DNA of 64,000 nucleotides, from assembly GCF_009914755.1 (NCBI RefSeq), contig NC_060928.1; one strand, given 5' to 3'. The notes below the pieces were generated by a model, which worked only from the letters and a program-made list of their open reading frames with translations, was not told the DNA's origin and searched no databases. The stretch comes from the human T2T-CHM13v2.0 reference genome, Homo sapiens. A program made the position numbers and the translations under genes. Below, piece by piece: positions 871-62,603 of this stretch; position 1 is the first letter of the stretch; each line of letters starts with the position of its first letter.

Positions 871-2762
871 TCATTCCTAGGATTGCCTACCACATCCAAC
901 CTACATCTTTAAGGGTAGTATTCTTTTTGTACTGCAGACGTGTACCTTGGTGCTTGAGGCTGATGTGCCTTGGGTGATTTTAGAGAGCCAGTACAGTGAG
1001 AATTTTGATAGACTCAGCAGTTCTACCTGAAGCATGATATATATTTTGGCAACTAAACTATCCTGCTTCAATAACGAGTGGTAACCCACGTTGGGATCTT
1101 ATTAGGGCCAGGTGAGGCTTGGGGCTAAGAGCCAGCCTGATGGCACCTCCTCAGGGTCCTGCTGAGTGTTGCCCACCATCCAGTGAGCAGCTCTACACTG
1201 GCAGGTGCTTCTGAGGTTTCATCCTGAATGTTCTCATTCTTCCAGGCTGCTTCATCTATGCAGGATAATTCCACAGCCTGGGGCCAGGAATCTAGCACCG
1301 ATCCAGAGACTGAGTCCACTGTAAGGATAACTCACTGCAAGCTGCCGGTGCTGTGAGGCCTGTACCTAACCCCAGCCTCTAACCTTCAGCTTCATTTGGG
1401 CTGGAAGTGGCCATTTGTGGTGAGAGCTGAAAACAACACCCTTCCTTTATGACTGGACGAGGAACAGCTGCCTTGTCAGTGTCACTAGGGCTGGTCCACT
1501 GCTTATCTAAGGTTAAGGAGAACTAAAAATGGGATGTCCTGCACATCTGGACCTCATGGACTCTAGAGGAAAGCCAGACACTCCTTTCATGCCTGGAGAC
1601 TGTTGTGACTTCAGTGTTACTTATTTGACCCATGCTCACATGGAGTGGCTATCTGATTCTGTTTCTTCCCCACAGACTGTTGAGCAGAACACATTTTCCT
1701 GAGTGATTTTTCACCTTGAAAGGAACAAGTAGTTCCATCCAGTGATTTAAACCTGCTCTGGCAGTTTCTCAGAAAGGTCAATGATAGATGCACAGCTTAA
1801 ACTCACCCAGAGGTGGTGAAGGACTGAGCGCAGAATGCGTGGTGCTGGAAACCTTTGCTTTTCTTACGGCTTGTGCAAACCATTGAAACGTGCTGTTCCG
1901 CAAATTCTGTGTGCAGTGCTGATTGCGGTCATGTCAGCAGCTTTGCTGCACAAGAAAGGCTCAGTAGTCTTGAATCCAAGAATCCTGTTTCTGACTCCAT
2001 GTCCATCACCAGGGTGTGAAAGTGCTTGGCTGTCTGGCTCCTGGGGCCCAAGAGTGAACCAAAGGGCTCTCTTGATGTGGAAGCAGCTGCTGGTCTTGCT
2101 TTCCAGGTCTTAGCTATTTTCAGGTTCTGGGGAAGTGTTTCACAGAGCCTGGAAGGTGGCTGCCACAGGGGAGGGTGGAGGAAGCTTGGAGCAGTGTGTC
2201 AGGACAACTATCCTGGGTGCTGGGTGAGGAATGTTCTGCCTCATGGGAGCTATGCTGACTTTACAGATCATGGACAGCAGGGACCTCGTGGCCCACTCTG
2301 AAAGGGGATTCTCTCTAGGATGGAGAATTTAAGCACCCAGTTATCTAAGTCCACCTAGTTAGGAAAGAATGCCGTTTTTAAGATGTCTGACTTGGATTTG
2401 AAACAATCTGCATATTATATATTTCTACCTTAGCTGGTGGTAGAATCTAGTGTGGAAATGGCCTGGGCCTAGAGCAAACTTGGAAATTTTGATTTAGCTT
2501 CCGTCGTTGAAAATCTGTTCTCTTTTGTTTGAATCTGTATCTTTTAAGGCATTTCTGTTTGACACATTTGACAAATAAATGGCTACTCTAAATTTTTCCA
2601 ATATCTCTACCCTGGAATGCTAAGATTCATTACAATTTTCTTTGCCTGCCTTTCTTGATCCAGGGTTGCCAGAGAAACAGATCTGAGGGCTCCTATATAA
2701 AATACAAGGAAAAACAAAGACGATTCTGGATTTCCATGAATGTTGAAACTAAATTTGACAGG

Positions 2763-3230
2763 TGCTATATTTTGTATGGTGTTGCAAATGACTTAGGAGC
2801 TCAAATCAACTTTCTTACAGTTTTAGAAATCAGAAGTTTGAAATAGGTTTCATTTAGAGAAAACAAAGTTGTTAGCAAGGTTGTATTTCTTTCTGGCTGC
2901 TTCAGAGATCACTTTCCTCACTTTAGACCCCATATAAAACATGACTTGTGGCTTCTTAGTTAATCCTCAGTCAGGACCTTCATTGGTGTTGAGTCAGCAC
3001 CATGCTCTGATTTTTTTCTTCTGACTCTTGCCTCCAATTCTCAGTCTTCCTCTTTATCATGTTAAGCTAAGATTACCCTGGGTTTGGCCAGGGGGCCCAC
3101 TGTCAGCAAGGTGATTAAAGTCAGCTGACTACAACCCAATGCCTTGGGTCCTAATTCACCCTTGCTGTGTAGCATGTATTCACAGGTTCCAAGGATGGGG
3201 ACATGGGTATTAGAGGACTGTCTCTGGCCG
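2763..3230 (-). mobile_element. MLT1C/D MaLR LTR, ancestral to the unit (paralogs ~14957-17647, 19795-20317, 31385-31885, 45885-47035, 59255-59643)
   Basis: TCTTACAGTT.TAGA..TCAGAAG...AGCTGATTAGCAACC...ATTCACAGGTTCCA.GGAT..GGACATGG, at the same position in every unit. Confidence 0.8.
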
Positions 3231-3244
3231 CTTTCCTTGGTACT

Positions 3245-3560
3245 TCACCTGGAAGTGATGCCGTGAACACCAGAGGACAATGGTGAATCCGTGAGTGGGT
3301 GGCAATAGCAGCTTCTAGTGGGATAGGATTGAGCTGGTCACTTAGCGGTGACCAAGGCTCAATCCTGATGGGGGGGAACCTGCAGGAGCCATGAATACTG
3401 CATGCAGAATATCTGTCTTGGGGCTAAGAGTCTGTTACCCACCAACTCTGTTGAAGCTTCCCCTTGACCTAGGGTAACACTTTCCCCTGAGCTACTGAGC
3501 TATGACTCTCCATGAAAACCATGGACCCAGAGGGTGAGGGTGTGGCCTGGAGCAGCCCAG
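3245..3560 (-). mobile_element. LTR33-like remnant, copy a of the unit (paralogs ~17660, 20330, 31890, 47050)
   Basis: GGAAGTGAT.CC...CCAGAGGA...GCAGC...TGAGCTGGTCACT...GGCTCAATCCTG.TGGGG...ACCCACCAACTC. Confidence 0.55.
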
Positions 3561-5768
3561 TCATTCAAGTAGAATGGGATACAACCTGGGTCTCCCCGTT
3601 TTTTAAATATCTCAGGATGCAGAAAGTGAGAAAGGTTAACTTGTTCGATGAATGACTTGTCTTTAAATCTCATACTTTCTCCCCCCACAGAAAATAGGTG
3701 AGATTATATAAATAGAGCTAAACCTTCATCTACCTCCTGTTGTGTGTCATGTTGCCAATGTGACAACTGCTGTAGAAATGTGCAAAACTCATTGGGGGTA
3801 TAATGCAGGTTATCGGTTAGACTGCCACATGGAGCATATTGTATGTCACCTATTGCTTTTCATTGCCACATACCATACCTTGTTTGAGAACAAATACGAT
3901 CTAAACTGTTACATTTTCTTAAGATGTGCTTTTGTCCTGTATTTGAGCTTCTAAGAACAGTTGGCATCCCATTTGAATTAGAGCAACTACAGCTCTAGTT
4001 GTGAAGAATTTTTCTCCTCATCCAACATCGTAGATTTTTCTGCTCCCTCAGATTGTGACCCCAGCCAAACAGAACTCTGACTTCCAAGTAAAATTTGGGG
4101 GACTGAGAAGGAAGAATGAACTGATGTGCACCCCTTCTCTTGCCTGCAGTTCTTGGCAGGCCTAAGCCACGTCCCTGAATTTCCCATACTCGATGCTGTC
4201 TGCCCTTGGAAGCTGCTGGCTAATGTTTGGTTTTAACTGTGCTACCCTCTGCAGGTGGCTTTTTACTTCAATTACCTCAGCCTCTCCACGCAGCCTAGGT
4301 TGTCCTTTGACCCTTGTATGACTGACACTGCTGTTCTGTCTGTGCACAATGATGGTCATTGTCAAATGAGTATTTGGAATGTTCCTGGTCAGGTTGCTCA
4401 CCACTGATCACCTCTGCTGGAGATTTGCTCTGCTTTACACACAGGGAGGTTCCACTGGATGTGGATGGCATGGGCACTGGCTCCAGGCGTGGGCCTGGCT
4501 CACTGCAGTCTGTTCCCCTGGGCTCTAGGTCTGTGGTGTTCAGACTTCTCTGTCATGGGCTCCTTTTGCTGTGTTGTGGGGTGGAGGTTATGAGGCCAGA
4601 AAAATACCCATGCTGCAGGACTGGCAGTCCCATCTCAATGTTTCCCTCCTCCTGATGACGGCAGGCTGAGCCCCCCTGGTCTTGGCAATGTGTCCTCGTT
4701 ACGTACCAGCTGATGCCCTTCAACCTATTCACCCCAAGAAAGAAGAGGTATCTGGCTAGCCAGGGAAACTTGGCTTCATGTTTTTCTAGGATGCCAAATC
4801 AAGGTCCCTAGAGTTGTAGCCTCAGGACAAGTGTCACACAGTGTGTGGTGTGGCAGGTCCGTTCCCCTTGTGATGCCTTTTGTAAAAGTGGATGGAGAGA
4901 CGACTTAAACTTGTTCTATCTGCAAGTCCATCATACAGCCCCACAAGTGCAGAGTCCTGCCAAGATGCCAAAATGAGCTGTTAGATGCACCTGGATTCTG
5001 GGAGTGGCATGGCATGCTTCAGTGCTGACCAGACCAAACTAAAACCCTGCATATTCTAACTTATGGTGCTCACAAAAGCCAATTGTAGGTAGTCCGGAAT
5101 TCTCAACTTAATCTGGATTAAGATTATATTGTGTTTGGTAAGGATGATGTAGTCATAAATATCCTACATCAGTAATGCAGAGAACTGTTCAATTCACCAC
5201 TGCTGTTCTTCGTGGTGATGTCTGTAAGTCACACAATTGGATGAGCTGTCTGAGCGGGGGAGGGGGTCTATAGATGAAGCTCATGTCTTGGGTTGTGGAG
5301 GGCACCCTGAACCCAAATGCCTAAAAGTCCTGTACCTCTCAGCTTGCATTTTGGAGTCGAGGTGAAGTATATTTGATATAAGACAATACTCTATCTCCTT
5401 ATCCTCCTGTTAGCCTTGGTATTTTCCTCTAATCATCACGAAGTCTCCAGGTGATCTTCTGCCATTCATTCCAGTATTTGTCAGGTTTATGATACACTGT
5501 ATGCTGGCTGCACATTTTCACCTGTGTTAAGACTTCAGGGTGCTCCTTTGTTTGTCTAATGTCTGCTCCCTTATCTTGAAAGGTATCAATTCTATGTAAG
5601 TCAGTTTCTTTACCTTATTTTTAACAATTCTCTGTTGAGTAAAGCTTAAAGGGACGGTGCCCTTTAAATGACTAGGACTTTATAGTTCTATGTCTTACTG
5701 TTGCTACACAACAGTGTCCTCTTGGTAGGAAACGTCTATCAAGGATCACTTTTGTACTCTAACTGGCT

Positions 5769-6404
5769 TGAGGCAGGAGAAACGGCGTTTGCAGGCAGGT
5801 AACTTAAAGTAATTTATGCTAAATTGAGGAAAAACGCCAAGGTCGTGGGGGCAGGGAACCTGAGTTCAATCTGTGCTGACTTCCCAAAGCTACATCAAAA
5901 GGAAAACATCTGGGTCTGGGGTCAGGGAACCTAGGTCCCATTAACCACTTCCTAAAGCTAAACCCAAGGGAAAACCCCATCTCCCCCACAAGAGTAGCAA
6001 AGGATCCAAGGCTATTCTCCCTCTATCTTCCCCTGTCCACCACGTGGCAGAGGAAAGGAAGTGTGTGTACTGGCTTGGATGCAGGTTATGCAGGGACCAT
6101 CTGTTTATCTGCAGAGGGTGCCAGTTCACCTCAGTCCTTAATTAGCCATGGACCAAATCCTTTATCCAGATAAGGGGTAACAGATGGGGACCTCAAAAGG
6201 AGAACTTAAAACCCAGAGAACTTTGTAACCCGGCTCTTGTGCCACTTGCTGAGGCCCACTCCCACCCCATGGACGCTTTCTCACTTTGATATTGGCTTTT
6301 GCTGCATCGTTTGTGTTTCATTCCTTTGTTACTTTGCTTCTGTGTTGTGTTAAAAACGCCAAGGACCTGGACAGTTCACTCAAGGCCCTCCTTCCAGTGT
6401 AACA
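5769..6404 (+). mobile_element. MER51-like ERV1 solo LTR
   Basis: TGAGGCAGGAGAA...GGCAGGGAACCT repeats...TAACA. 4-bp TSD GGCT (5765-5768, 6405-6408). Absent from paralogous sites. Confidence 0.85.
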
Positions 6405-7693
6405 GGCTGAGGGGACATTGACCAAGGTTGAAGGTTTTGACATACATCTGTGTTTTCTCCGAAGCTGTTAGGATTCAGGTACTGCTCCTGAAATTTTCGT
6501 CAAGCCATCTGAACACTAGAAGCTTGGGGTTGGATGTTCCCTGTAGTTTCTCTGGATGCCATTGGCACCAATAAAAGTTGTTACAGACAGGGGACAAATG
6601 GGATGATGGTCATTGTGGACAATGCTGTGCCTTCTCTGGGCACCCAGGACGACTCTGGTGGAAAGGCGTTGATCTCTGGAACCTTTACAGTCCCACATGC
6701 TTGCACTGCTGTGGTGACCCGACCCTGTCCCCAAACTGACAGCCAGCTCTGTATCACCGTATTGTAGGTGGGGGAGGCAGCTGTTGGTCATGTCTTGCAG
6801 GTATTCTCTCTGATCTGGCTTTTTCTCAGAGATCCTTTCCTGCTGCTGCTGGGTCACAGCCCCCCTGAAGGTTGGCTACAGTAAGCAAGCAGCAAGAAGG
6901 CTGCCCCTTAGAAGGAATTAGTGTATTGTCTGAGTGGCTGACCCTGAAAGAAGCATTGTTGGGCAGCAGAGCTGCAAGAAGATGCAGGTCCACTCATCCT
7001 TGATGCTGAGAAACAGCTCTGTGAACCTAGGGAGCTCCCAGGCTGGGGATTCTGAGGACTCAGGCATCTTGGTTACTCTGCCAGTGATGCTGGCAAGGAT
7101 GCAGCCAGGGGACCCACTGAGGTGTGTTGGTCCTTGGGGATAAGTCTGAGTCCAGGGTGCTCTGTGGTGAGTACTTCCTGCTCCAGAGGTGAGGCCGATG
7201 GAACCTGGACAGCTATGCAGAGGAGGATAGCAAGCTGCTCATCTCCATAGGGACTGATTTTTGAACTTGTATCTTCTTCCTGGTCTGTAGTAGGTATTCC
7301 ATATCTTCCTTCCTTAGGAAAGAGCAGTGAGCCTGTTTGTGTCAGGTTGGGCTCAGTTGATGATAAAATGGCCCAGACTTGATGATAGCCTCCCATTGGG
7401 GACTTCAACATAAAGTTGTTCTGACTTGATTTTCTACATGGATACCTGCTGGCACCTCATTGGTCCTGCAACAATTGGGGCAGGTTCAACTAGGTTCACC
7501 CTGGATTTTCATCTTCCTCACAACCTCACTTATTCTTGGATCCTATTTCTGGTGACTGTTGATCTTGATGTTCTGGCACATTGAGGGTGAAACTAAGTCA
7601 TCTCCTGCTATAGGGTAAGAAAGTCCCACAGGGAAAACTAACTGGAAGTTGGGTCCTGCCCCATCTTGGTCTCTGAAATCTGTTTTTCAGTAG

Positions 7694-8466
<773 letters not shown>

Positions 8467-9926
8467 TGAACACAGCTGGTTTTCATTGTTTCTACCAGTC
8501 TTGAGCATCTGGGGACTTCTTCCTAGGAGATGTGGCTGTGTTGGGAGAAGTGAGCTGAAGTCATCGTGTCTTGCATCATCCCTTGGGCTTGTAGATGTAG
8601 CCTTAGAGTTCAAACTCTGTACATTACCTGGCATATGACCTTGGCTGTTGGACCCCCCAACTAGTGAGAGATCTCTTAAGTCTCTTGTGTGACTCATGCA
8701 CTAAAAAGAGCTGTCGTGGAATTGAATATCTTCTTGGGTGCTCCTCTATCTCTGACACTTGGGACTCTGAAGGAACATTTCCTGAAAAGCTTAACCACTC
8801 ATGCAGGGAAAAGTTAGCACTAGTGATGTTTCTCCTCTTTACATGGATTCAGCTGCTCTTCCGTACCTTTCTCACCCTACCTTCTAATTATCATTGAAGG
8901 TACCTTGGTGACATAACTACAGCCTTAAAAGGACCCTCCCCTCAGTCTAGGGAGGATTTTGTGCTTTCATTTCATGTGAACAGTTTGCTGCTGCTTGAAA
9001 TCCCTTGGTCAAAGAGAGCTGACGACCATTCCTCCTTGCCCATCTTGCATGAATATGACATCAATGATGAAAGAATGATCTCTTTGCAGAAGACTGAGAT
9101 GAATTTCTGCCTTTGAGGACAAGAATCTTACATGAAAGTAGTGATGAAGGTCCTGTTTCTCCCCACAAAGTCTAAGTGTGTGGTTTCCTTCCTAGTTGGA
9201 TGTCCTTTAGTAGCTGGTAGTGATTTCAGGTCCCAACCTGAGCGCTGAAGGTCATACTTGCTTTCCATTTAAAGTGTTTCAACACATTGAGTTGATATCT
9301 ACAGTTTTTCAGCAGGTACAAGGGTTAAAGGGTATAGTCTAGGAAGAAAATTCTTCAATGAAACAAACCTGTTTCACTCAATATACCTACAACCCACAGA
9401 AAATTTCATGCACTAAAGAGAGCTGTAGTGGAATTGAACAACCCCTTGGGGGTTCCCTTATTTCTCATTGCCACTTGGGACTCTGGAAGGAAACTTCGTG
9501 GAAAGGTTAACCACTCCCACAAGGAAAAGATGGTCCTAGTGACAAGTTACTTATCTGTATCTCCACACAGGAGACTTAAGTGGTCTCTCACTAATGTAGT
9601 GGGATTGAACACCCCCTTGAGTGCTCTTCACATACATCTGCCCTGGACAGGCTGATTCAGGAATGGACCTACAGCAGGAGGCAGCCTGAGGATGGGAGGG
9701 GCTGCTAAGAGAAGTCTGTATTTCCAAAACTTAAGAGAGCACATGGGTCCCCATGATTCATAAGTGAATAACGTTGATTTCTCTACCTCCCAATTAGCTG
9801 GATCCATCTCTATGTACTGTCCTGGGGTGGAAAGGTACTAGGTTAAGTATCATCTGACCTTTAGATCTTTGTTCTTTGATTCTACTGCTTGTGACTAGTC
9901 CAGTTTTAAACCCTCAGAATAAGATG

Positions 9927-10710
9927 ATTACCTTTGCCTTGTATTGCAAGGGATTAATTCTAGGACCTTCAAGTGCTTAAGTCTCTTGTATAAAATGGCA
10001 TGTAACCTGTGCACATAATCCTACATCCTTTAAGCTATCTCTGGATGACTTACAGTCCCTAATACACTTTACATGTTTTGAACATAGTTGCTTCATTTAG
10101 GGGATGAGGACGGCATAGTTCCTGTGACGTCAGTGTATTCAGTACAGCCGTAACTATCCTAGACATAAATATGTAGTTAATGTCGGCAACAAGGGGAACA
10201 GTTCCTTTATCGACACATACAGACTGTTTTCTTCTAGTGATCTGAGAGTTAACACTGACAAAGGCCCTGGCTGGTCTGTCTTGATAACTTTTGTGGGATA
10301 AGGATGATTACTGTATGGGGCCTACTGTGCCCATGGGGTAATATGACTAGCTTCATTGCACTGTAGTGAGATGTCTGCTTAACATGAACCTTCCAGAAGG
10401 ATGTCAGAAGGATCATCTATCTACCTTGGAAGAACAGGTTTCTATTACAGTTGTTAGTGCTTTAGGGGGAGACTTGGCTGAGGATCTTCAACCATGGATG
10501 TTTGAAGCCAATGTTCTGGCAAGAAAAATTGCTACAGGAAACTGTTGCTCTTCATCATGAAATTTTGTGGGGGTTGTAGGCATATATATTGAGTGAAACA
10601 GGTTTGTTCCATTAAAGAATTTTCTTCCTAGACCATTTCCTTTAACCCTTGTATCTGCTGAAAAACTGCAGACATCAACTTGATATTATCGAAACACTTT
10701 AAATGGAAAG
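9927..10710 (-). mobile_element. TcMar-Tigger remnant: MER2-type terminus plus degenerate transposase C-terminus (paralogs ~25970-26345, 36075-36645 + 41178-41420, 52834-53680, 62770-63160)
   Basis: MER2-like GGGGACTGGTTCCAGGA...CAAGTCCCTTATATAAAATGG...ATCTCTAGATTACTTAT. Minus-strand translations VFQQIQGLKEMV*EENSLMEQ (U1) and LKSMIFEYYPFMERRL...YDLQPSTS (U6). Confidence 0.75.
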
Positions 10711-13700
10711 TGACAGTATGGTCTTGAGTGCTCAGGCTGGGACCTGGCATCACTTGATAGGAGAAAGTTTTGACATTTTCTGAAGGCTGTGCTCTAGGAT
10801 GATGAGGTGGGAATTGGGGAAGTATAGACTGGCTCTGTCTTTAGCAGATCCTTGACCTGAAGCCCAGGAAGCTCATGGATGAGGAGCTGAGTTGTGTATG
10901 GGGAGAGAGTGAGGCTTGGCCTGCTGCTGTGGGGAAGCAAAACACCCTGCAGTCCAGAGGGCTTCTAATTTTTCCCTTTGTCTTTGGTATTTGTGTATTC
11001 ACAAGGAATGCGGGTTGTTCCTGATCCACGTGCAACCAATCAATTCTACCTGCTAGAGTGCTTGCCTTTAATTTATAATGCTATACTGGGTGGGTCTTCT
11101 GACTTGCAAGGTCTTTGAAGGAATGGGTGTGTCAAGGACCTGTCTTGGGCTCCTACCTCTACACTGAAGGATGTGCCTCAGGGGCTTTGTATTTCAACAA
11201 TCTTAATTCTGTCTGTCTGGCACAGGCCATCAGGTACTGTACATCATCAGGGACAAGCCCTGCATGAACGTTTGCAGATGGACATTGCAAGTTTATTCTG
11301 CACAGCTCCTTGCTCGTGGTTAGCCTATGACACCGGGCACTGCCTGTGTCTCAGTTTCTCTCTCCTGACACCTGGTAATATGGCATCTTGGCTCTATTTT
11401 GTTCACAGATGTGTGCTTAGTGAGTTTTTCTCTTCAGCCATTGTTCAGCTCATGATTCTCAGGGGAGATCATCTGGACAATGTCCTGTATACTTGGGAAT
11501 CACCATGAGTTAAGGCTCTTCCTGACCCTACCCTCAGCTTTGCTCTACATAGGAAAATGTTCTCATGCAATGCAGAGTTTTACAGCAATTTTCATTATTT
11601 TAGTTTTTTGTGTGTATGGGAGGCCAGGATGAGGACATGGGCATGGTACTGTCCATGGCTGTGTTGCTTTTACAAGGTGGCCTGGAGCAGGTCGCTGAGC
11701 TTCCCAGCCTCTGCTATGCTTGCACACACATTCTGCAAGATGACTGATGATCCTGAGTGTTGGCTTCTGCAGGACAGTCTCAGCCCTTCTGCTATAGGGA
11801 TCATCCAGATTCCATAGCTGAAGCATTCCACATGTATCTTATGGTGATCTTTACCTTCTCCCTTAGCCCCATGGATTCTCATGCAGGCCGACCTGGGAGG
11901 GGAAGTCTTTGCTTTTGAAACACCCAGGGCTGGGTCAGATGAAACAGAGATGCATTTGAAAGCATGGGTCCTGTGTTCATTCAAACATCTCACCTTGGGT
12001 CTAGGTTAATACACCAATGATGTAACATAAATGATTCCAAAGCTACTTTGCTTTCATGTCACCAGCAGGTGCATATGTGGAGTTTGTGACATCATCCTTC
12101 CACCCCTCATGGTCACAGCCTAGGGTGTCCTTTAGCTTGTCTGCCTGATGTTGTTCTTCCTTGTGTATCATGAGTGGGTCCCTCTCCTCAGAGTACTTCA
12201 GACAGGCCTAGTGAGATGCTCTCCCTCTGGATGTTACAGAGCATATTTTACATCTGATTTATCTCCAGACATGTCCACAGGCTGTGACATGAGCAGTGTT
12301 TATCTTGAGCCTGGTTTCTCAGATGTTCTCTGAATATTCACACACCTAGGCTGTGAAATCTCTGGCTCCTCAATATATTGCCATGGGATCATTTCCCTGC
12401 CTTAGTCTTAGAGGTTCTTCCATCAGATAGTAAAAAGATAGAAGCATCAGGTGTCAGCTGCGTTAGATCTGTTGACTATTTCCCATTGGTGGTGGTGGCT
12501 CTGAGAATGAGGGCACAGAGGTTTCTGAACCACAAGTAAAAAGGGCATGGAGGTGACTCTGAACCCAAATGTCTGCAGTCCTGATCACTCTCCACCCTGC
12601 TCTAAGGGGCTACTGCAATTGCGGTGGGTAAGTGAAAAGCAGGCATTACTCCCTTTGGTTTACCTCTTCACTTCTGCAGCTTAGAGGCAGTAAGAACACA
12701 CATGGCTAGGAAAGCAGTGCTTTGAGCAGTCGAGGTTATAGCTGCTCTCTTCCTCTGAGTGTTCTTTGTTGTAAAGATCCTTAAGTCTGTCCCTAGGTTT
12801 CTCCAAGTTGACTCAGTCATGCCCCTTATGGAGCCTGTGTCGCTGGCTGTTTCCCCACCCAGAGAATGTGTGCTGCAGCTCTGAGGGCCTCCTGTGAATC
12901 TCACACTTGATGCCTAAGGGAATGTTCTCAGGCATTGGCTGGTGGCTGTGATTCTGATAGCTGTGGTTGATACCTTCCCGTAAGGTAAACACTCAGTCTA
13001 ATGAGATGGCAGCCCACCCTCCTGGATTCTGTCCTGTTTGTGCCTGTGCTGTTGGGCTAAGTACCTTCTCCCAGGCTGTGACAGCTGTCAGTCTGCTCCA
13101 ACTTACTAAAGAAACTTTTACAGAATTGGCTCTGTGCTGTTTCACGTGAAGTGACACCAATATGATAGGTGGTCAAAATTATGTCTTTGCAGTAATTGGT
13201 GACAACACAAGTTGGGATCTCATAAGGGCCAGTTTGGGGCCTGGATCAAAGAGGCTTATGGAGCTTCCTAACGGGTCCTGATAGAATTGCCAGGCATCCA
13301 ATGAGCTGCTCTGCACTGACAGGTGCTTCCTTAGGTTCTATCCTGAATGTTGTTTCCTTCAAGCTGTACCATGTTTAGAGTAATTCTGTAGCTTGGAACC
13401 AGGAAAATTCTCAGCTCAGTTTCAGGAAATAGGGTCTACTGTAAAGACAAGTCATTTCAGTCTGTTGGCTTTGAGTTCTGTACCCAGCCTACCCTCTGGC
13501 CTGAAATTCCATCCAGCCTTGGCAGAGTGCAGTGCATGCAGAGAGCTGAAAAGCAAATTTCTCCTTTTTGACTAGACAAGGGACAGCTGCCTTGTTAGAT
13601 TCAATAGAGCTGGTCCACCAACCCAATCCTTTTTGGGACCCAGCTTACCATGGGTGTTGAAGGCTAGGGAGCACTGAAGAAATGTACTTTTCTCTTTCTA

Positions 13701-15022: not shown

Positions 15023-17194
<2,172 letters not shown>

Positions 17195-21962: not shown

Positions 21963-23884
21963 GCCCCAAATACAGCTGCCCATGGTCATAGCAGTCTGTC
22001 CTCTTTATAGACCAGCTCTGATTTTCTTTCTTGGTGTGAGTGGGTTGATGAAGTATGTGGCTAGTTCGGAAAACTCCTTGGTTCATGCCTTGGACACAGA
22101 ATCAAGGTTTGAGTTCTGGCTCCAGGACACAGTTGCACAGCCTATGCTGTGACAGGTGTGGCAGGTCAGGCAGTTCCCCTTATGATGCCTTCTGCAAAGG
22201 TAGATGGGATCCACTTTGATAATGTTCTATGTAAAAGTCTTAATACCCCTGTCCTACTGGGTTAAAGCCCTGCCTACAAGAGAAAAATAAGCTGCATTTT
22301 TAGCTAATTTGGATTCTTGGCATAGTACAGCATGCTTCGGGATTGGCTAGATCGAGTCTACCTCACTGGATCTTCCAGATCTGTTTTAGTGGTCACAACA
22401 CTAGTACCTATGTGGTACTGAATTTTCAGATTAATAGGATTCAAAATCTACATTTCAACAGATTTTATTCTGATGGAAATTTTTCTAAACATAATGCAGG
22501 GAAGTATTGAATTATCTGTTGCTGTTCCTTATCATCGCTGTAACTCAGACAGTGGAATGAGCATTCTGAGCAGAGTTCATAGATATTTGAACACCATGTC
22601 CGGGTCCATGGAAGATACCCTGAACTCAAATGCCTGAAAGTCCTGTACCTCTCCAAGCTTGCACTTTGGGGCCCAGGAAGAGGGGGATGTCCAAATTAGT
22701 GGAGCAAATGCGTTCTGTCCATTTATCCTCATTTTAGCCTTCATATTTTTCTCCCATCATCAGAAAAACTCCTGTGATCTTCAGACACATTCATTCTAGA
22801 ATTTATCTCATCAAGTACTATCTTTTGCCTGTATATTTCTATTTAAGTTTATATAACCTTGTCTGCCTGATGTCTGCTCCTATTCCTTTAAGGATATTAA
22901 CTCTCTAAATTTCTTGATCATAGGGTCTTTACTCTGTGAAGTTTTCTTAAAATGATGCCCTTCAGATGACTAGTCTTTGTCCTGTGGTTTCCAGTAGTGG
23001 TGGTAAAGCCTGTGCATCTGTATTGGTGGAAAGGCTCAATCAGGAAACATCACTGTTCTGATAGAGACGTACCCCAGGGTTAAAGGTGATAATGTATATC
23101 TCTGTTTCCTCCAAAGCTGTACCATGTGAGTGCTGCTGCTCAAATGTTCCCAGCAAAATCTGAATTGCTAGAAGGTTGGGGATGTGCATTCCTTGTAGTT
23201 TATCTCTGGATGTCTTTGGCACCAATGGAGATAAAATATTTGCAGATAGGGAACAGACATCATCTTTGGTAATACTGTGCCTTTGCTGGGCAACCAGGGT
23301 CCATCTGGAAGACTTGGAAGTGAATTCTGAAACCTTGACAATCATGCAGTGTCACACTGCTCCAGTTAGCTGACCCTTGGTGCAAAACCGGGAGCAAGTA
23401 ACATTTCCTGAGAAATGGCAGCTGTTGCTCATGCCTTTTATGCATTCATCCTTGCTGGCTTTTTCTAAGATAATTTTCTGCTGGCACCGGGTCCAGAGTT
23501 ACGTCCTGGGGGTCAGTTGTAATAGGAAAATAAACCATGCTAGGACTTTTCCTCGTAATGAATTTCTTAGTCCATTTGTAAGCTGTAGCTTCTGGCAGGA
23601 AGAAGCACTGTTGGTCAGCAGAGCTGCAAGGAGATGTGAAACTCCTCACCCATCATACTGAGAAATGATATCAAACATGTTGAGCTCCCGGTCAGCTTGG
23701 AAGTCTGAGGACTTGGGTATCTTACTTCCTTTGGCAGTGAAGCTAGTGAGAATTCAAGGTGTGAACTGCCTGAGTCTTCATGGTCCTCGGGGATGATGAG
23801 CCATGTGAGTCCAGGGTGGTCTGATTGACTACTGAAAAGGTGAGGTCAATTCAGCTAGGACAGATTTGCAAATTGCTAATTATC

Positions 23885-46810: not shown

Positions 46811-49800
46811 GCAGTACACCTTAATCTTTTTCTCACCTCTGATGCTCCCTCCTTCTCTCACTTTCTTTTCCGACAGTGATCCCTGGACCATCCACGGTAA
46901 CTTTTGTGTACCCTGAAGTCAGCTGATTATCAACCTCAATTCCATGTGTTGCCCTCATTTTCCCCTTGTCATGTAGTATACCAAGTTCATGGGTTCTAAG
47001 GATTAGAATGTTAGAGGACCATTAATCTGCCTGCTTTATTGGTTTTTAATTTGGAAGTTGTCCCAGGAAACCCAGAGGAGGAAAGTGAACAGGAGGTGGG
47101 GTGGAGAGAAGAGTCACTGGGTTGTTCGGATTGAGCTGGTCACTTTACAGAGCTGACCAGGGCTCAGTCCTGATGGGAACCCTTGAGCAGAATGAATAAT
47201 ACGTCTTAGAAAATTCCTCCTGGGAACAAGTCTGTTTTTACCCACCAATTCTATTTCCACTGTCCTTGAATTTTCTCCAAGACCTCACTTCCCCTGCACT
47301 GCTGAGATTTGCCTCTGAAAATAAGCAGGCCCCTCTGCAGGTGGAAGGTGTGGTGTAAGGATCCCAGTCATTCTAGAACAATGTTCAACAGGCTGGGTCT
47401 CCCCATCAGCAGAAGATGGTTGGACTGAGCGCCTACTGAAGCCAGGATCTCTCTACTTCATCTTCCTGTGACAGGCACTTTTCTTCCTCTCCTGGAATGA
47501 AATTGTTTTCACACCCCTGTATCTCAGTCAGCCTTGTCCCTTGTCTGCCTCCTGCAATGTCTGTTTCTATTAAGTACCTAAGAGTTTTTAAAAAACACTG
47601 AGAAAAATAGAGCTGAACATACTTTATATTCAAAGGAGGATTTGTCTTTTAAATCTCATGCTTTTTTTTCTTCCACAAATATAGGTGGAAATGTATGCTT
47701 AAAGAGCTAAAACTTCATCTACCTCCCATGTCAAATCACATATCATATGCTGTTTTCATAACAGATGTAGAAGAAATTTTCAACACTTAGTCCTTCATTG
47801 CGATGTAATGCAGGATGTAGGGTTAGATTCCCACTTGGGGGAATATAGTACATCACACATTGCTTTCTTTGCTACTTAATCTATGTCCTGTAGGGATAAA
47901 CAGGATCTAAACTACCTAAACATTGAGTATTGTTCAGGTGTACTTCTACCCTGTTCTTGAGCTTCTAAGAACGGTCAGCATCTCGTTTGAAATTGAGTGA
48001 TTAATGCTTTTTTGGTGGGAAGAACTTTTCCCCTCCAACGTGGTATTTCTGCTCCCTTGAAATGGCAGTGACTCTGGCCAAAAGAACTCTGGCTCCCAAG
48101 TCAAATGCATAGGGTTGAATGAAGAAGGAAGAATGAGCTGGTGTGCACCCCTTCTTTCTTGCAGTCCCTGGTGGGAATAACCCAGGTGCCTGGATTCCCC
48201 CCCCCCCATACTAGGTGCTGCATTCCCCATGGAAGCTGCTGGCTAACGTGATTGGTTTTAACTGTGCTAACTTCTGTATGTGGCTTTTTACTTCAATTAC
48301 CTCATCCTGTCCACACAGCCTAGGTTGTCCTTTGATCGCTGTCAGATACAGCTGTTCTGTGGGTGCATGATGGTAATTATCAAAGGAGTATTTGCAGTGC
48401 TCTTGGTGAGGTTTCTCACCACCTAACTGCTCTGCTCCATTTTATCCACAGGGAGGTTCCACTGGATGTGGATGGCATGGGCAGTATTGACTGAGCCTGG
48501 ATCAGTGCAGTCTTTCCTCTCAGGATCCCACATCCAAGGCTCCAATCTGGTGTTCAGGCTTCTCTGCCATGAGCTCCCTTTGCTGTGGTGAAAGTAGAGG
48601 TTGAGGGCCCTGTGGCGTTCATGCTATAAGACTGACCATCCCAAGGCCCTCAGTGTTTTCCTCCACCTCTCAATGACCTTCAGTTGAGCACCAGACACAT
48701 CTGCTTGTGGTCTTCAGAGTCTGTCATCTTTATGGGCCAGCTCTGATTTTCTTTTGTGGGATGAGCTGGTTGAAGGTAACATATTTGGCTAGCTCACAGG
48801 ACTCCTTCATGTTTTCTGTGATACAGAATCAAGGTCTGTAGAAGCCTGGCCTCAGGATAGTCACACAGGTGACTGTGACAGGTGTGGCAGGTCAGTTCCA
48901 TCCTTTATGACTGGGCAGTTCCTCTTGTGATGCCTTTGGGAAAAGTGGATGAGATCCACCTTGATCCTGTTCTGCCTGAAAGTCTTAATCCCATAGCCCT
49001 AACTCTTTAAAGTCCTGCCTAAAAGAGAAAATAAGTTATTCTTTCAGGTATCTGAATGTTGGGAGTGGCATAAAATGTATTAAATTTGACTACATCAGTA
49101 ATACAACACTGTATGTTCCAGGCCTATTTGTTAGTGCTCGCAAAAGCCAATGATTAGGAAGTCCTGAATTCTCAATGTAATCAAGGTCATAGTCTATGTT
49201 CCAATTCACAATATTTTATACTGATGGAAATAATTGTTTCCTATATACATAATGCATGGAACTGTTATCTATTGTTCCTTGTGATTTTGATAAATCATAC
49301 AGTTGGATGAGCTGTCTGGGCACAGCAGGGTCCGTAGGTTTGAACCTCACGAAGAGTGCTCTGAACCCAAATGCCTGGAAGTCCTATTCTTCTCTCTCCT
49401 TACACTTTGGGCCCAAGGAGGAGGGCAATGTTTGAATGATTGAAGTAAATAAGTTCTGTTTCCTTGTCTTCATTTTAGCCTTTGTACTTTCCTCTGATCA
49501 TCAGGAAATCTACCTGTTCTCTTCAGCTCTGTTCTAGAATTTATCCTACCTATTTTTAAACAGTAGTATTTGGCTTAATATTTTTCTGTTATGACTTCAT
49601 GTTGCTTTGTTTGCTTAATGCTTGCTCTTCTTTGAGGATGTCAACTCTATATGCCAACTTCTTGATCTTATTTTCATAATTCATTAAAGTTTTCTTAAAA
49701 TGTTTGTCCCCTTTAAATTACTCATCTCTTTATCCTGTAGTTCTGGTAGTGGCTACAAAACCTGTCTGTATGTATTGGTGAGGAGGCTCTTTCAGGAAAG

Positions 49801-51314
49801 GTTTCTGTTCTGTAATTGAGGCGGCATTCATCAGGATGGAGGGTCTATAACCTACATCTGTGTTTCCTACAAAGTTGTAACATTTCAGGTGTCGTTCCCA
49901 AAACTTCCCTAGCAAAATCTGAGTGGTGGAAGTTTGGGCCTGAATGTCCCCTGTAGTTTATATCTGGATGCCTTTGGCACCAATAAAAACATGACTGTGG
50001 CCCAGGCAAGGGAAGGTTTTCATCATGGGGCAACGTTGTGCTGAATTCTGATACTTTTCTAGTTCCACGATGTCGTACGGCTGCAGTTAACCCTTAGGTC
50101 AGAACTGGATCCAATGGTGTTTGCTGGGTGGGAGAGATGGCTATTGGTCTTCCAGGCCTGAGATTTGGTCACTTTTTTCCCCCAAAGAAATTGACATACA
50201 GAGTTGATAACCTCCAAGACGGGGGAGCAGACATTAAGCAAACGAAGCAACAATACAAAGTCATAACACAGATGACATGATGAATTTGTCTTAGTCCACT
50301 TGTGAACTGAGACAAGTACCCTTGGTCAGCAGAGGGTTCAGCAAGCATGAGACCCTTCATCTTTTACACTGACAAACTTCCCTGTGAAGCTCCAGGAGCT
50401 TCGTTGCCAGCTGGGAAGTCTGAGGATTTGGTGTCTTAATTCCTCTGGCTGTAAAGCTGGTTCAAGCTGTGTACTTACTGAGTCGTCTTGGTCCTCAGGA
50501 ATGAATCCAAGTGATTCCAGAGTGGCCTGTGTTAACCACTCCTATTAAAGAGGTGAGGTCAGTTCAGTCTTGACAGTTTTTCAGAGGCTGATATCATGTT
50601 GCCAATCATTTCTGTGGGAACAGATTTCTGAATTTGTGCCTGCTTCTTTGGATGTATTGTATATTCCAGATATTTCTTCCTTCCTTAGAAAACAAAGCTA
50701 TAAGCCTGTTTGATTCAGGCTGTACTCAAATGATTGGTGGTAAAATATGCCCAGACTTGATTATGACAGCCTAGCACTAAAGACTACTCCAGGTAAGGTG
50801 CTTGCAGTTGTATTTTTTGTTATCTTTGCTGGCATCTCATTAGTCATTCAATACTTGGGGCAGGCTCAACTACTTTCCCTTCTAGTTTTCTTCCTTCATT
50901 AGACCTGTCTCTTGCTTTTTGATCCTAGTGCTAGTGAATGGTCACCTTGATGTTGAGATGCATTCAGAATGGAACTTAGTTCTTTCTTGGTATGAGGTAG
51001 AGCAAGTATTGTAGTAGAAAAAGGAAGGTTGTGGCTGCCTGAGTCTATTCTCTGAAAGCTTTCAGTGTAAAACAAGTCTTCTGTCTAAAGCTGGTATGCA
51101 ATGGGGGCTTGGGTCCCTTCAGCAAGTTATGAGAACAAGCTCATTCCCACTTACTATGCATCATCAATAACCCACATTCCTAGAAGGGTCTCCTGAAACA
51201 CTCGTGGTCAGGGAGTGCTGTTCAATACTGGGTCAATGGAGGTCTCAGATTGTGAAAAAAAATCCAGGTTTGGAAGACACTCAATAAACTGTCACTTAAA
51301 GAGAAAATATCAGA

Positions 51315-51620
<306 letters not shown>

Positions 51621-54600
51621 AGATCAGAGATAGCCTTTTTGCCCAAAACACACATTCCTGAAAATCCCCATTAAACAGGAGTCTGTGGGAGCAGGTCTGG
51701 GTTGGCCTCTGCGGGAACATAGTGTTTCCTCCAGGCACAGGGCATCTGAGGACCTACTGCTCAGGTGACATGGGTGTGTTGGAATCAGTGAGATGTCACC
51801 TTGTTTCAGATCATTCCATGGACCCACTGATGGGACCTTAGAGTTTAAACTGTGTATACATTACCTGCCATGCCATTGGTTATTAGTCCCCAACTAGATA
51901 CATCTCTTAAGTTTCCTATGTGGTTCATGCTCTAAAAAGAACTTTAGTGGAATATAACACCCCTTTGGGTGCTCCACTATCTCACACTACCACTTTAAAT
52001 TGTCAAAGGAGCACTTCCCCGGAGGCTTAACCACTCATGCAAGGACCAGTTAGCACTACTGATAAATTACATTTTTCCTTGTGTGGATTTAGCTTTCTTT
52101 CCTTGCCTCTTTTTACTCTACCTGCTAATTATCATTGAAAGTTCCTTGGTAACATAACTACAGCCTTAAAAGTGCCCTCCACTAATACTCTATGGAGAAT
52201 TTTGTGCTTTTGAGGTTAATGGTTTGCTGCTGCTTGGAATTCTTTGCAGGTCAACTGTGTTGATTAGAGTGATCTGAGGGATGTCACTGAGGTGGGATGT
52301 CAGCTTATGGTGGTTATTCCCCATTTTGCATGAATATCATGTCTTGTCAATGAGAGAATAAGTTGTCTTTGCAGAAGAATAAGAAGAAATTGATTTCCTT
52401 TTTCATATGAAGACAATAATATACTAAGGTAGGAATGAGGGTTATGTGCCTCCTACCCCAAAAATCTTAGAAATGTGTCGTTCCCTTCCAGGTTGGACAT
52501 CCTGGTCCATTAGCTTGAGTTGCTGTATCTGCCCTGGGCAGGCTGATCCAGGAGTAGATGGTGATGGTAGCTGGCCTGAGGAGGGGCTGCAAACTTCTAA
52601 AAAAATATAGGTTCCTTTGATCCTACAGGAGCTGAAGTCCTCAGGATTCATCTGGAATAAAGTGATTTCTGTGCTAACTCCCAATTAGTTGGGTACATCA
52701 CTGCCCTTTCTGTTCTGGGGTATGGAGGTATTAGCTTGAGTAACAACTGACCTTTAGGATCTTGTTCCTTTGGTTCTGCTATGTGTGACTGGTCAACTTG
52801 ATAGTGTGTAACATTCAGAATGAAAAACGGGTACTGTTGTCCCTTTATATGTGGGGTCTATTTTCAGGACCCTCTGCAGATGCTCAAATTCCTTACACAA
52901 AATAGCTTAGTGTTTGCCTACTATAACCTATGCACATAATCCTGTGTCTTTAATCTCTAGATTACTTATGATACCAATTGCCATGTACATGTGATGTAAA
53001 TGGTTGTTACACTGTATTTATGGAATAGTGACAAAGTCTAAAGTGCTTACATATCCCATAGATAGGCAACCATGCTAGCTGAAAGTATGTAGTATACATC
53101 AGCAGTAATGTAACATCCTTCAACACTCTAGCTGTTTTTATGGAGTTACCTGAGAGTGTGTTAACACTCCCCAAAACCCTGGTTCTTCTCTCCAAGTAAC
53201 CTTTTTGTGATGATCCTTGCTGTATGGTGCCTACAGTGCTCACAGTGAGGTGACAAGATGTGTGTTACTGTACAAAAGCAATGAGACATCAGCCTAAATT
53301 GAACCTTCTAACAGGACACGAGAAAAATCACCTATGTCAGAAGACCCAGGTTGGGGTTGCGGACGTCGATGTTGTCGTTGGAGATTCCATAATACTTAAT
53401 GTGAAGATAGGAGGAGGAGGGCTGAGCATCTTCAAGTACTGACTGTTGAGGCTTCACAAATGCTGAGACTGTCGTTAGAAATGTGGTTATGGGAAGCTGT
53501 TTCTCTTCCTTGCAACATCACAGAAATCCTTCCGTGCTTATAAGTACATTCTTCCTCAGATGACAGAGGCTTCCCTCCACTGAAGGATGGTGCTCAAGAA
53601 TCATACCTTCTAACTCATGTGCCTGTTGAAAACATACTGTAAATATCAATGTGATTATTTTGCAATGCTCCAAATAGAAAGTGCAAGGTGTGGTCTTGAA
53701 TGCACAGGTTGGGACCTGAAATCAAACAGGTAAGAAGTAAATGTTGATGTGTTTCCAAACCTGTGATCTAGAGAGGTAAGTTTGAAGAGGAGGTGGGAAT
53801 GGCTAAGTTTAGACTAGGTCTGTCTTGTCCATATCTTTGACGTGAAGCTTCAGGAAAGTCATGGGTATGGAGAAACTGGCAACAGTGTCCAGGGAGTGAG
53901 TGAGGCTTTCTATGTTCCTGTGTTGAAGTTCAACCCACTGTATTCCAGAGGCTTTCTAATACTCTCTACCTCCTCTTTGTGTGTTTCCTAAGGGTAAGGA
54001 TGGAGCTTGTTTCTGATCCATGTGTGACCAGATCTATTCTACCTACTTTGGACCTTGCCTTCAATTTATAAAACCCTGTGTTAACAAGGACTTTACTACT
54101 CTAAGTCTTGTGGAGTCTTCTTGGTAAATGAATGGGGGTATGTAGACCTATCTTGGGGTCGTACCTGGACTCTGAAGGATACAGTTCAGTCTTTGAGTTT
54201 CAACAGCCCCAGTCCTGTGTTTCTAACAGTCTTCCAGGTATGAAATACCATCAAGGGATAACCACTGCCCTGGAACATAAATGCTGGGAGAAGGACACTG
54301 CCTGCTCCTCCTCCATAGCTCCTTGTTCATGGTTGACATTTGGTACTGGGCACTACCCCCATATCTGCTGAGACAGTGAATTTCTCTATATTGTCCCCTC
54401 ATGTAGCATATTGGTCACATCGGCCTGTTTTCACAGCTGTGTTTTCAGTGAGTTTGATTCTTTAGGCCATGTTCAGATGGTTTTCAAAATGTAGTTGTCT
54501 TGAGGAATGCCTTGAGAACTTGGCCATCATCATGAGTGAGGCTTTTTCTACCCCTATCCTGAGCTTTCCTTCAATGGGAATATATTTCAATGTAAATGCA

Positions 54601-54687: not shown

Positions 54688-54966
54688 GTGTTGATTGTTG
54701 TGATCTGTGGGATGTCACTGAACTTCCCAGACTCTGCTTCACCTGCCCACACATGGCAGAATAAAGAATTCCATGGCTCCTGAGGTTTTTAAATAGCAGG
54801 AATGGGACAGGATTAGTCCTTCTGCAGTGTGTTGGAGTGATATGGGGAATGTCACTGAACCACCCAACCTCTGATTCACCTGCCCACACGTGGCAGAAAT
54901 AAAGAATTCTATGGCTCCTGGGGCTCTTAAACATCAGGAACCGGGACAGGATTAGTTCTTCTGCAG
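54688..54966 (+). repeat. ~138-bp tandem duplication specific to U5
   Basis: ATGTCACTGAAC...TTCACCTGCCCACAC.TGGCAGAA(A)TAAAGAATTC.ATGGCTCCTG...GGGACAGGATTAGT.CTTCTGCAG occurs twice. Confidence 0.9.
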
Positions 54967-61892: not shown

Positions 61893-62190
<298 letters not shown>

Positions 62191-62267
62191 AGGGGTATAG
62201 TGGAATATAACACCCCCATTGGAGCTGAAGGGCATTTCATTGGAAACTTAAACATTGATCCAGTGGC

Positions 62268-62603
<336 letters not shown>

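What the first reader, a model, noticed from the sequence alone, without database searches (positions are those of the whole stretch)
9219..9630. Four-piece templated insertion that creates a ~190-bp inverted repeat
Seen: this ~410 bp block is absent from the paralog (52490-52530) and is a patchwork of nearby sequence. 9219-9410 is the reverse complement of 10556-10754 (about 85% by eye). 9407-9542 is a direct copy of 8695-8826, joined through a shared CATG. 9565-9593 is the reverse complement of 8662-8690. 9595-9629 is a direct copy of ~8712-8746. Established: serial template switching with microhomology is the FoSTeS/MMBIR or Pol-theta signature. Inference: a transcript could fold a ~190-bp imperfect stem with a ~1.15 kb loop over the Tigger transposase remnant, making it an ADAR or endo-siRNA substrate.
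Basis: partly seen in the sequence, partly recalled or inferred. Interest (0 to 1): 0.7.

Follow-up and report, generated by a model that had tools for sequence, protein, structure and literature searches.

The report
Old DNA-repair scar copying four neighbours
A 417-base patch on human chromosome 4 is stitched from four copies of nearby DNA; it is likely a harmless scar of one copying error in an ancient primate germline, and its inverted repeat is predicted to pair as RNA only if the region is transcribed, which nothing here shows.

Summary
Block 9219-9635 holds four copies of DNA lying 0.4-1.1 kb from the original site: A (inverted, 84%), B (direct, 78%), C (inverted, 27/30) and D (direct, 27/35). 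No better donor turned up in the genome search or in the surrounding repeat array. A and B group with their own unit's donors (100/99, 96/95), and both paralogous units that keep the site lack the block.

Refinements: 13 bases of the original target survive between B and C, so nothing was deleted. Two junctions share 5 bases (one needs a 7-base gap). The B and C donors start back-to-back. Divergence is uniform across the pieces (pooled 0.16), fitting one event about half as old as the array duplication.

Tracts of 30-190 bases fit FoSTeS/MMBIR-type template switching better than typical polymerase-theta joining. If transcribed, 175 of 192 arm bases would pair, but no transcript is annotated, no selection is seen, and three similar local inverted copies lie within 224 kb. 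The loop holds a non-coding transposon fragment, not a transposase.

Verdict: a real, ordinary, probably neutral member of a known class. Side finding: the surrounding array carries decayed, apparently intronless MX1 copies.

The parts
9187..9221 (+). Left flank of the original target site; ends in AGT (9219-9221), which is also the first 3 bases of piece A
   Evidence: aligns to paralog 52484-52520; AGT overlap inferred through the paralog
9219..9410 (-). Piece A: inverted copy of 10556-10754; left arm of the inverted repeat
   Evidence: 84.4%, E 5e-57; groups with own-unit donor 100/99
9406..9542 (+). Piece B: direct copy of 8694-8826, joined to A through TCATG (9406-9410)
   Evidence: 78.3%, E 5e-25; tree 96/95; junction
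9545..9557 (+). Retained original target sequence between the two halves of the block
   Evidence: 12 of 14 columns vs paralog 52518-52531; 10 of 2000 shuffles
9558..9563 (+). Six bases that nearly repeat 9552-9557 (likely slippage); no other donor found
   Evidence: read from the sequence; 9543-9563 has no ungapped local donor above chance
9564..9593 (-). Piece C: inverted copy of 8662-8691
   Evidence: 27/30; 0 of 1000 shuffles
9589..9629 (+). Piece D: second direct copy of the B donor (core 9595-9629 = 8712-8746); probably starts at CACTA shared with the end of C (8699-8703), followed by a 7-base gap
   Evidence: 27/35; 0 of 1000 shuffles; gapped alignment
9636..9662 (+). Right flank of the original target; ATCTG occurs both here and at 9553-9557
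   Evidence: 25 of 27 vs paralog 52527-52553
8662..8826 (.). Donor patch for C (8662-8691), B (8694-8826) and D; C and B begin back-to-back at 8691/8694 around a TGACTCA quasi-palindrome
10556..10754 (+). Donor of A; right arm of the inverted repeat; 187 bases overlap the RefSeq silencer 10568-10862
   Evidence: silencer from the hub's annotation table
9929..10160 (+). Fragment of a roughly 340-base dispersed element whose full copies end in ACTG-TA and start with a related CAGT-like word; shared with paralog 52828-53075; MER2-like by recall only
   Evidence: 40 matches among 40 scored of 55 candidates, 39 elsewhere at 69-81%; extent and ends

Best explanation
The block is an insertion of four pieces copied from DNA within about 1.1 kb, likely made in one germline event when a stalled or broken DNA end switched templates several times (FoSTeS/MMBIR-like), and it is likely a neutral scar. 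Inferred path on the top strand: synthesis left the target at AGT and copied 192 bases from the opposite strand about 1 kb downstream (A). It then jumped through TCATG to a patch 0.4-0.55 kb upstream (B) and returned to the target for 13 bases. It slipped, copied the same upstream patch on the other strand (C), switched strand again through CACTA (D), and rejoined the target at ATCTG with no net loss. Shown: donors, orientations, absence in paralogs, own-unit origin of A and B, one exact 5-base overlap. Inferred: single event, order of copying, polymerase, age (roughly 40-65 million years, from recalled primate rates) and neutrality.
For: Donors are local. The genome search gave 4 matches of 4 candidates: self, the two local donors, and a paralog at 74%. 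In 224 kb of array, paralogs reach at most about 70-74%. Trees group the inserts with own-unit donors at 100/99 and 96/95.

Donors are intact and one donor was copied twice (B and D), so DNA was copied, not moved. Divergence does not differ among the 4 pieces (chi-square p 0.23; pooled 57 of 389, JC 0.16, 95% range 0.12-0.21) and is below the unit-to-unit distance of 0.28-0.44 in 4 stretches. B, C and D come from one 165-base patch on both sides of the retained target, which favours one event.

The chance of an overlap of 5 or more bases at a random local junction is 0.006. Complex multi-template germline insertions are a described class: 33 of 103 and 26 of 99 calls in two people (PMC8421209, section 10 part 1).
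Against: Only one junction (A|B) has an overlap readable without assumptions. C|D needs a 7-base gap. Flank|A and B|target give about 3 bases inferred through a 25-30% diverged paralog (chance of 3 or more: 0.057). Target|C and D|flank show none.

B is only moderately closer to its own donor than to the paralog (p 0.17-0.21 vs 0.31). D alone is equidistant from donor, B and paralog (0.31 each).

No excess of changes in the copies, which error-prone synthesis would predict: 32 vs 23, p 0.28. Sequence alone cannot name the polymerase. No ortholog or RNA data could be examined.
Confidence: 0.68

Rival explanations
1. Polymerase-theta end joining at clustered breaks. The broken end made repeated abortive primings on resected overhangs, including both ends of a second break near 8692, before final joining.
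For: C and B start back-to-back at 8691/8694 and run outward, as copying from the two ends of one break would give. Overlaps of 3-5 bases and a 6-base slippage repeat are present.
Against: Reported theta templates are typically under 10 bp and within about 20 bp of the end (PMC11541566 passages; that assay under-detects insertions over 20 bp). Here tracts are 30-192 bases and 0.4-1.1 kb away. The donor at 8692 is collinear with its paralog, with no obvious scar.
Confidence: 0.14
2. Two separate insertions, [A+B] and later [C+D], 13 bases apart.
For: Original target sequence survives between the halves, and each half is bounded by a short duplicated word (AGT; ATCTG).
Against: Both halves use the same 165-base donor patch, and divergences are homogeneous (p 0.23), although the test is weak for 30-35-base pieces.
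Confidence: 0.08
3. The inverted repeat is a working RNA duplex (ADAR substrate or small-RNA source).
For: Folding 9200-10780 pairs 175 of 192 arm bases on the + strand and 177 of 199 on the - strand; the longest unbroken helices are 31 and 47 pairs.
Against: No annotated transcript covers it; the only lncRNA in the window spans 40895-61582. G:U-tolerated changes show no strand bias (9 vs 7, p 0.80), and the 92% core is not significantly better kept than the rest (p 0.18). No Rfam match in the window. A longer inverted Alu-like pair in the window gives a stronger duplex (-449 vs -259 kcal/mol), and a 93.5% unique inverted repeat lies 72 kb away.
Confidence: 0.04
4. The event matters at DNA level because it placed an inverted second copy of most of a silencer element 1.1 kb from the first.
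For: 187 of the 295 bases of the RefSeq silencer 10568-10862 lie in the donor of A (hub annotation). Template-switch events were reported enriched in factor-binding sites and super-enhancers (PMC7954356 passages).
Against: No silencer is annotated on the copy. The copy carries more derived changes than the donor (14 vs 7). The nearest protein-coding gene listed is over 110 kb away. The assay behind this silencer record was not identified.
Confidence: 0.05
5. The block is a transposon, a retroposed piece, a copy from a distant locus, or ancestral sequence lost from other units.
For: Only 2 paralogous units keep the target site; units at about 25.9 kb and 62.8 kb lack the whole region.
Against: No better match genome-wide (this search skips very common words). 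No poly(A) tail or long target duplication. Inserts group with own-unit donors, so they postdate the duplication.
Confidence: 0.01

Closest known systems
Complex germline MMBIR templated insertions (MMB-TI, 'complex' class; PMC8421209, passages and section 10 part 1 read)
   Same: Several nearby templates, mixed orientation, short shared bases at junctions, return to the original chromosome without larger rearrangement.
   Different: Those were sought among inverted templates within 100 bp and within read length, as present-day variants. This one is 417 bases long, uses templates 0.4-1.1 kb away, and is 12-18% diverged from its main donors.
Local n-jumps and cycles or bridges of templated insertions in cancer genomes (PMC7025897, passages read)
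   Same: Copy-and-paste of local segments with a mix of inverted and direct junctions, donors left in place.
   Different: Somatic and mostly far larger; here a small, old germline event.
Polymerase-theta templated insertions (PMC11541566, passages read)
   Same: Short shared bases, fold-back and direct copies, iterative synthesis.
   Different: Templates typically under 10 bp and within about 20 bp of the break.
Short-range template switches in great ape genomes (PMC7954356, passages read)
   Same: Evolutionary record of strand switching in the primate germline.
   Different: One inverted tract, median 12 and maximum 128 bases, with signal fading at 1-2% divergence; here four tracts at about 16%.

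Membership tests
FoSTeS/MMBIR-type complex templated insertion | Inserted DNA copied from nearby templates that remain in place | tested here: met
FoSTeS/MMBIR-type complex templated insertion | Two or more template switches with mixed orientation | tested here: met
   A inverted, B direct, C inverted, D direct
FoSTeS/MMBIR-type complex templated insertion | Microhomology at junctions | tested here: inconclusive
   1 of 6 junctions exact at 5 bases, 1 at 5 bases with a gap, 2 at about 3 bases inferred through a paralog, 2 with none seen
FoSTeS/MMBIR-type complex templated insertion | Single event | tested here: inconclusive
   homogeneous divergence p 0.23 and shared donor patch; orthologs not available
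FoSTeS/MMBIR-type complex templated insertion | Origin at a stalled or collapsed fork; polymerase dependence | not testable with these tools
   ancient event
Polymerase-theta end joining scar | Short templates taken from within tens of bases of the break | tested here: not met
   30-192 bases from 0.4-1.1 kb against PMC11541566 passages
Polymerase-theta end joining scar | POLQ dependence | not testable with these tools
   none
ADAR substrate or endo-siRNA hairpin | Arms can form a long duplex | tested here: met
   predicted 175 of 192 bases paired
ADAR substrate or endo-siRNA hairpin | One transcript spans both arms | not testable with these tools
   none in the hub's RefSeq table; no RNA data available
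ADAR substrate or endo-siRNA hairpin | Editing or 21-23-nt reads | not testable with these tools
   no read data
ADAR substrate or endo-siRNA hairpin | Selection to keep pairing | tested here: inconclusive
   9 vs 7 strand test and core test not significant; low power
Tigger transposase remnant (loop) | Transposase coding remnant | tested here: not met
   0 Pfam families in 12 frames at E up to 1; longest stop-free frame in 9636-10555 is 82 codons; 10200-13100 matches only array copies. A very decayed remnant could be missed.
Tigger transposase remnant (loop) | Related non-autonomous element with TA ends | tested here: inconclusive
   4 unlinked copies of about 340 bases end in ACTG-TA, with weak inverted ends; the family name MER2 is recalled, and no repeat library was available

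The most novel reading that the evidence does not exclude
One template-switch event copied two-thirds of a silencer in inverted orientation into the upstream flank of a unit of an old MX1-retrocopy array, creating an element still active today, either as a transcribed 175-pair duplex that is edited or diced, or as a doubled repressive element.
Probability: 0.06. Interest if true: 0.6.

Novelty: new member of a known kind. Interest (0 to 1): 0.2.

Why it matters
As it stands it is a clean fossil of a known mutational process. It is unusual only because a paralog preserves the empty site, so the path of copying can be read tens of millions of years later. It shows that multi-template insertions of several hundred bases can be fixed in the germline and create long inverted repeats outside transposons. 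It does not open a long-standing question unless RNA or regulatory activity is found. The surrounding array of decayed MX1 copies may deserve more attention than the insertion.

Tried and rejected
(1) Distant donor: none in the genome searches for the block and for the B-donor region.

(2) Transposase in the loop: none. The genome-wide DDE_1 search scored only 150 of 6577 candidates and says nothing about this locus.

(3) Donor B as an MX coding remnant. One frame of 8405-9200, picked by eye, scored above 499 of 500 shuffles against an MX1 exon peptide. It had no DNA-level support (107 of 200 shuffles as good) and no support in 6 frames of 2 paralogs, and gave no MX hit among solved structures. 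Rejected as chance.

(4) Hypermutation of the copies: 32 vs 23, not significant.

(5) Structure within the block alone: z -1.49, 11 of 100 shuffles as good. No Rfam family in the window.

(6) Inversion of the loop between the arms: none; the loop is collinear with the paralog.

(7) Source assay of the silencer: not identified. That 295 bases is a tiled reporter length is recalled only.

(8) Orthologs in other mammals could not be examined, and the full MX1 gene was not compared; only 3 MX1 exon regions and 1 MX2 exon region were. Whether array units share MX1 intron or promoter sequence stays open.

(9) Literature on this locus or the MX1 pseudogene array: four searches (listings and abstract starts only) and passages of PMC4687636 (12 of 18 places) showed nothing on it. 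No supplements were read, and supplementary lists of variants or pseudogenes could mention it.

Full report
OBSERVATION. The four pieces are real. A (9219-9410) is the reverse complement of 10556-10754 at 84.4%, E 5e-57, and B (9406-9542) copies 8694-8826 at 78.3%, E 5e-25. C (9564-9593) matches the reverse complement of 8662-8691 at 27 of 30, and D (9595-9629) matches 8712-8746 at 27 of 35; 0 of 1000 shuffles of either reached these scores in the local 4 kb on both strands. The arms of the inverted repeat are 1145 bases apart, and a 96-base core is 92% complementary.

CONTEXT. The window is part of a very old tandem array with units of about 12-16 kb at 60-72% identity. Matches to unit 1 extend from about 77 kb before the window to about 7 kb after it. 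A genome search with the block returned 4 matches of 4 candidates: itself, the two local donors and one paralog at 74%. That search skips very common words, so it gives a lower bound. Trees place insert A with the unit's own donor (100/99; 6 rows) and insert B likewise (96/95; 4 rows), so the block postdates the unit duplication. Two units keep the target site and both lack the block: 52484-52553 clearly, and a distant unit in L008 on a weaker alignment. The units near 25.9 kb and 62.8 kb have lost the whole region and are uninformative.

ANATOMY. Against the paralog, the left flank aligns up to AGT (52518-52520), 9545-9557 aligns to 52518-52531 (12 of 14 columns; 10 of 2000 shuffles), and the right flank resumes at 52527. 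So the original site is cut twice, 13 bases apart, with AGT and ATCTG each present twice and no net deletion.

JUNCTIONS. Flank|A shares AGT (inferred through the paralog). A|B shares TCATG exactly. B|target shares about 3 bases with a few extra letters. Target|C has a 6-base near-repeat and no clear overlap. C|D shares CACTA if a 7-base gap follows. D|flank is unclear. A random local junction shows 5 or more shared bases with probability 0.006 and 3 or more with 0.057. C and B begin back-to-back at 8691 and 8694 and run outward on opposite strands, around a short quasi-palindrome. This fits either a primer able to land on both strands there or a second break (inference).

AGE. Mismatch rates of the four pieces do not differ (p 0.23). 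Pooled, 57 of 389 sites differ, JC 0.16 (0.12-0.21), against 0.28, 0.37, 0.44 and 0.30 for four stretches of unit 1 vs unit 4. The event is thus about half as old as that duplication. Using primate neutral distances recalled from memory, this points to roughly 40-65 million years, on or near the branch to simians; no ortholog was examined. Copies carry 32 derived changes against 23 in donors, with 8 ambiguous, which is not significant.

MECHANISM. Intact donors, one donor copied twice, alternating strands and short overlaps indicate synthesis with repeated template switching. PMC8421209 (passages; section 10 part 1 of 2) reports 33 of 103 and 26 of 99 germline calls as complex multi-template insertions, with up to five templates. 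PMC5120786 (passages) and PMC7025897 (passages) describe the same logic at larger scale. PMC11541566 (passages) finds polymerase-theta templates typically under 10 bp and within about 20 bp of the end, with a stated bias against insertions over 20 bp. The present tracts are longer and farther, so I favour a replicative FoSTeS/MMBIR-like route (0.68) over theta joining (0.14) or two events (0.08). The enzyme cannot be named from sequence. PMC7954356 (passages) notes that such signals fade at 1-2% divergence for short events; this one survives because its tracts are long.

FUNCTION. Folding 9200-10780 pairs 175 of 192 arm bases (+ strand) or 177 of 199 (- strand), with longest helices of 31 and 47 pairs, so a transcript would form a duplex. 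Against a role: the hub's table lists no transcript here; Rfam finds nothing in the window; and G:U-tolerated changes split 9 to 7 between strands while the core is not significantly better kept (low power). Local inverted copies with no repeat matches in the fetched region occur 4 times in 224 kb, counting this one, among 33 plus 7 local repeat pairs listed, many of which look like transposon pairs and were not all classified. One of them has 185-base arms at 93.5% and is single-copy genome-wide. The donor arm overlaps 187 of 295 bases of a RefSeq silencer; the copy is not annotated, and the source assay was not identified (PMC8744684 passages).

THE LOOP. No Pfam family was found in 12 frames over 1000-13103. 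About 9929-10160 belongs to a dispersed element (39 matches elsewhere among 40 scored). The full copies are about 340 bases long and end in ACTG-TA, and the fragment is shared with unit 4. It resembles the non-autonomous Tigger-family element MER2 by recall. It is not a transposase remnant.

SIDE FINDING. RefSeq pseudogene LOC100422639, upstream in the same array, matches Dynamin_M (E 7e-6) and solved Mx1 chains (E 7e-18, 4 sequences at E up to 0.01), and its best match off chromosome 4 is an MX1 exon at 79%. The match runs on across what are separate exons on chromosome 21, so it looks processed. MX-coding fragments lie at about nine places from 78 to 20 kb before the window. Window units keep only the 5' flank (7140-7335, 50486-50726; 23735-23874 weakly). 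The block therefore sits about 2 kb upstream of where the MX frame would begin. Four paper searches (listings only) and passages of PMC4687636 showed no description of this array; RefSeq already lists some of the pseudogenes.

VERDICT. Observation confirmed and refined; origin by local template switching well supported; RNA function unsupported; transposase claim not supported. New member of a known kind, interest 0.2. The most novel reading not excluded, a working duplex or doubled silencer, has probability about 0.06.

Noticed in passing
L005-L014 (chr4 about 10.214-10.272 Mb) and window 7140-7335, 23735-23874, 50486-50726: The ancient tandem array holds about nine decayed, apparently intronless MX1-like coding fragments (LOC100422637-9 among them); several break at the same point within one exon. 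Window units keep only the 5' flank. Tandem amplification of an antiviral retrocopy suggests it may once have been functional (inference).
   Followed up: partly
L016:7527-7711 and 8172-8356 (chr4:10373527-10374356): Single-copy inverted repeat, 185-base arms at 93.5%, about 460 bases apart: a younger and better duplex candidate than the focal one.
   Followed up: partly
window 50185-50268 vs 49587-49663: Inverted local copy at 77% in unit 4, probably an older templated insertion; the donor unit is ambiguous (75.5% to 5518-5611).
   Followed up: partly
L010:9173-9255 vs 9575-9658: Inverted local copy, 84 bases at 82%, in an upstream unit.
   Followed up: no
window about 8722-8728: The donor shows about four C-to-T changes within six bases relative to copies B and D and the paralog (read); possibly a mutation cluster, untested.
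   Followed up: no
window 10568-10862: RefSeq silencer overlapping the donor of piece A by 187 bases; source assay not identified.
   Followed up: partly
window 54700-54827 and 54837-54966: Near-tandem 130-base duplication at 85% in unit 4.
   Followed up: no
window 7857-8402, 51316-51619, 61893-62531: Alu-like elements (family by recall) sit at nearly the same unit position in three units, with unit 1 opposite in orientation to the other two; the unit 1 element is interrupted by a piece matching the end of the repeat at 15035.
   Followed up: no
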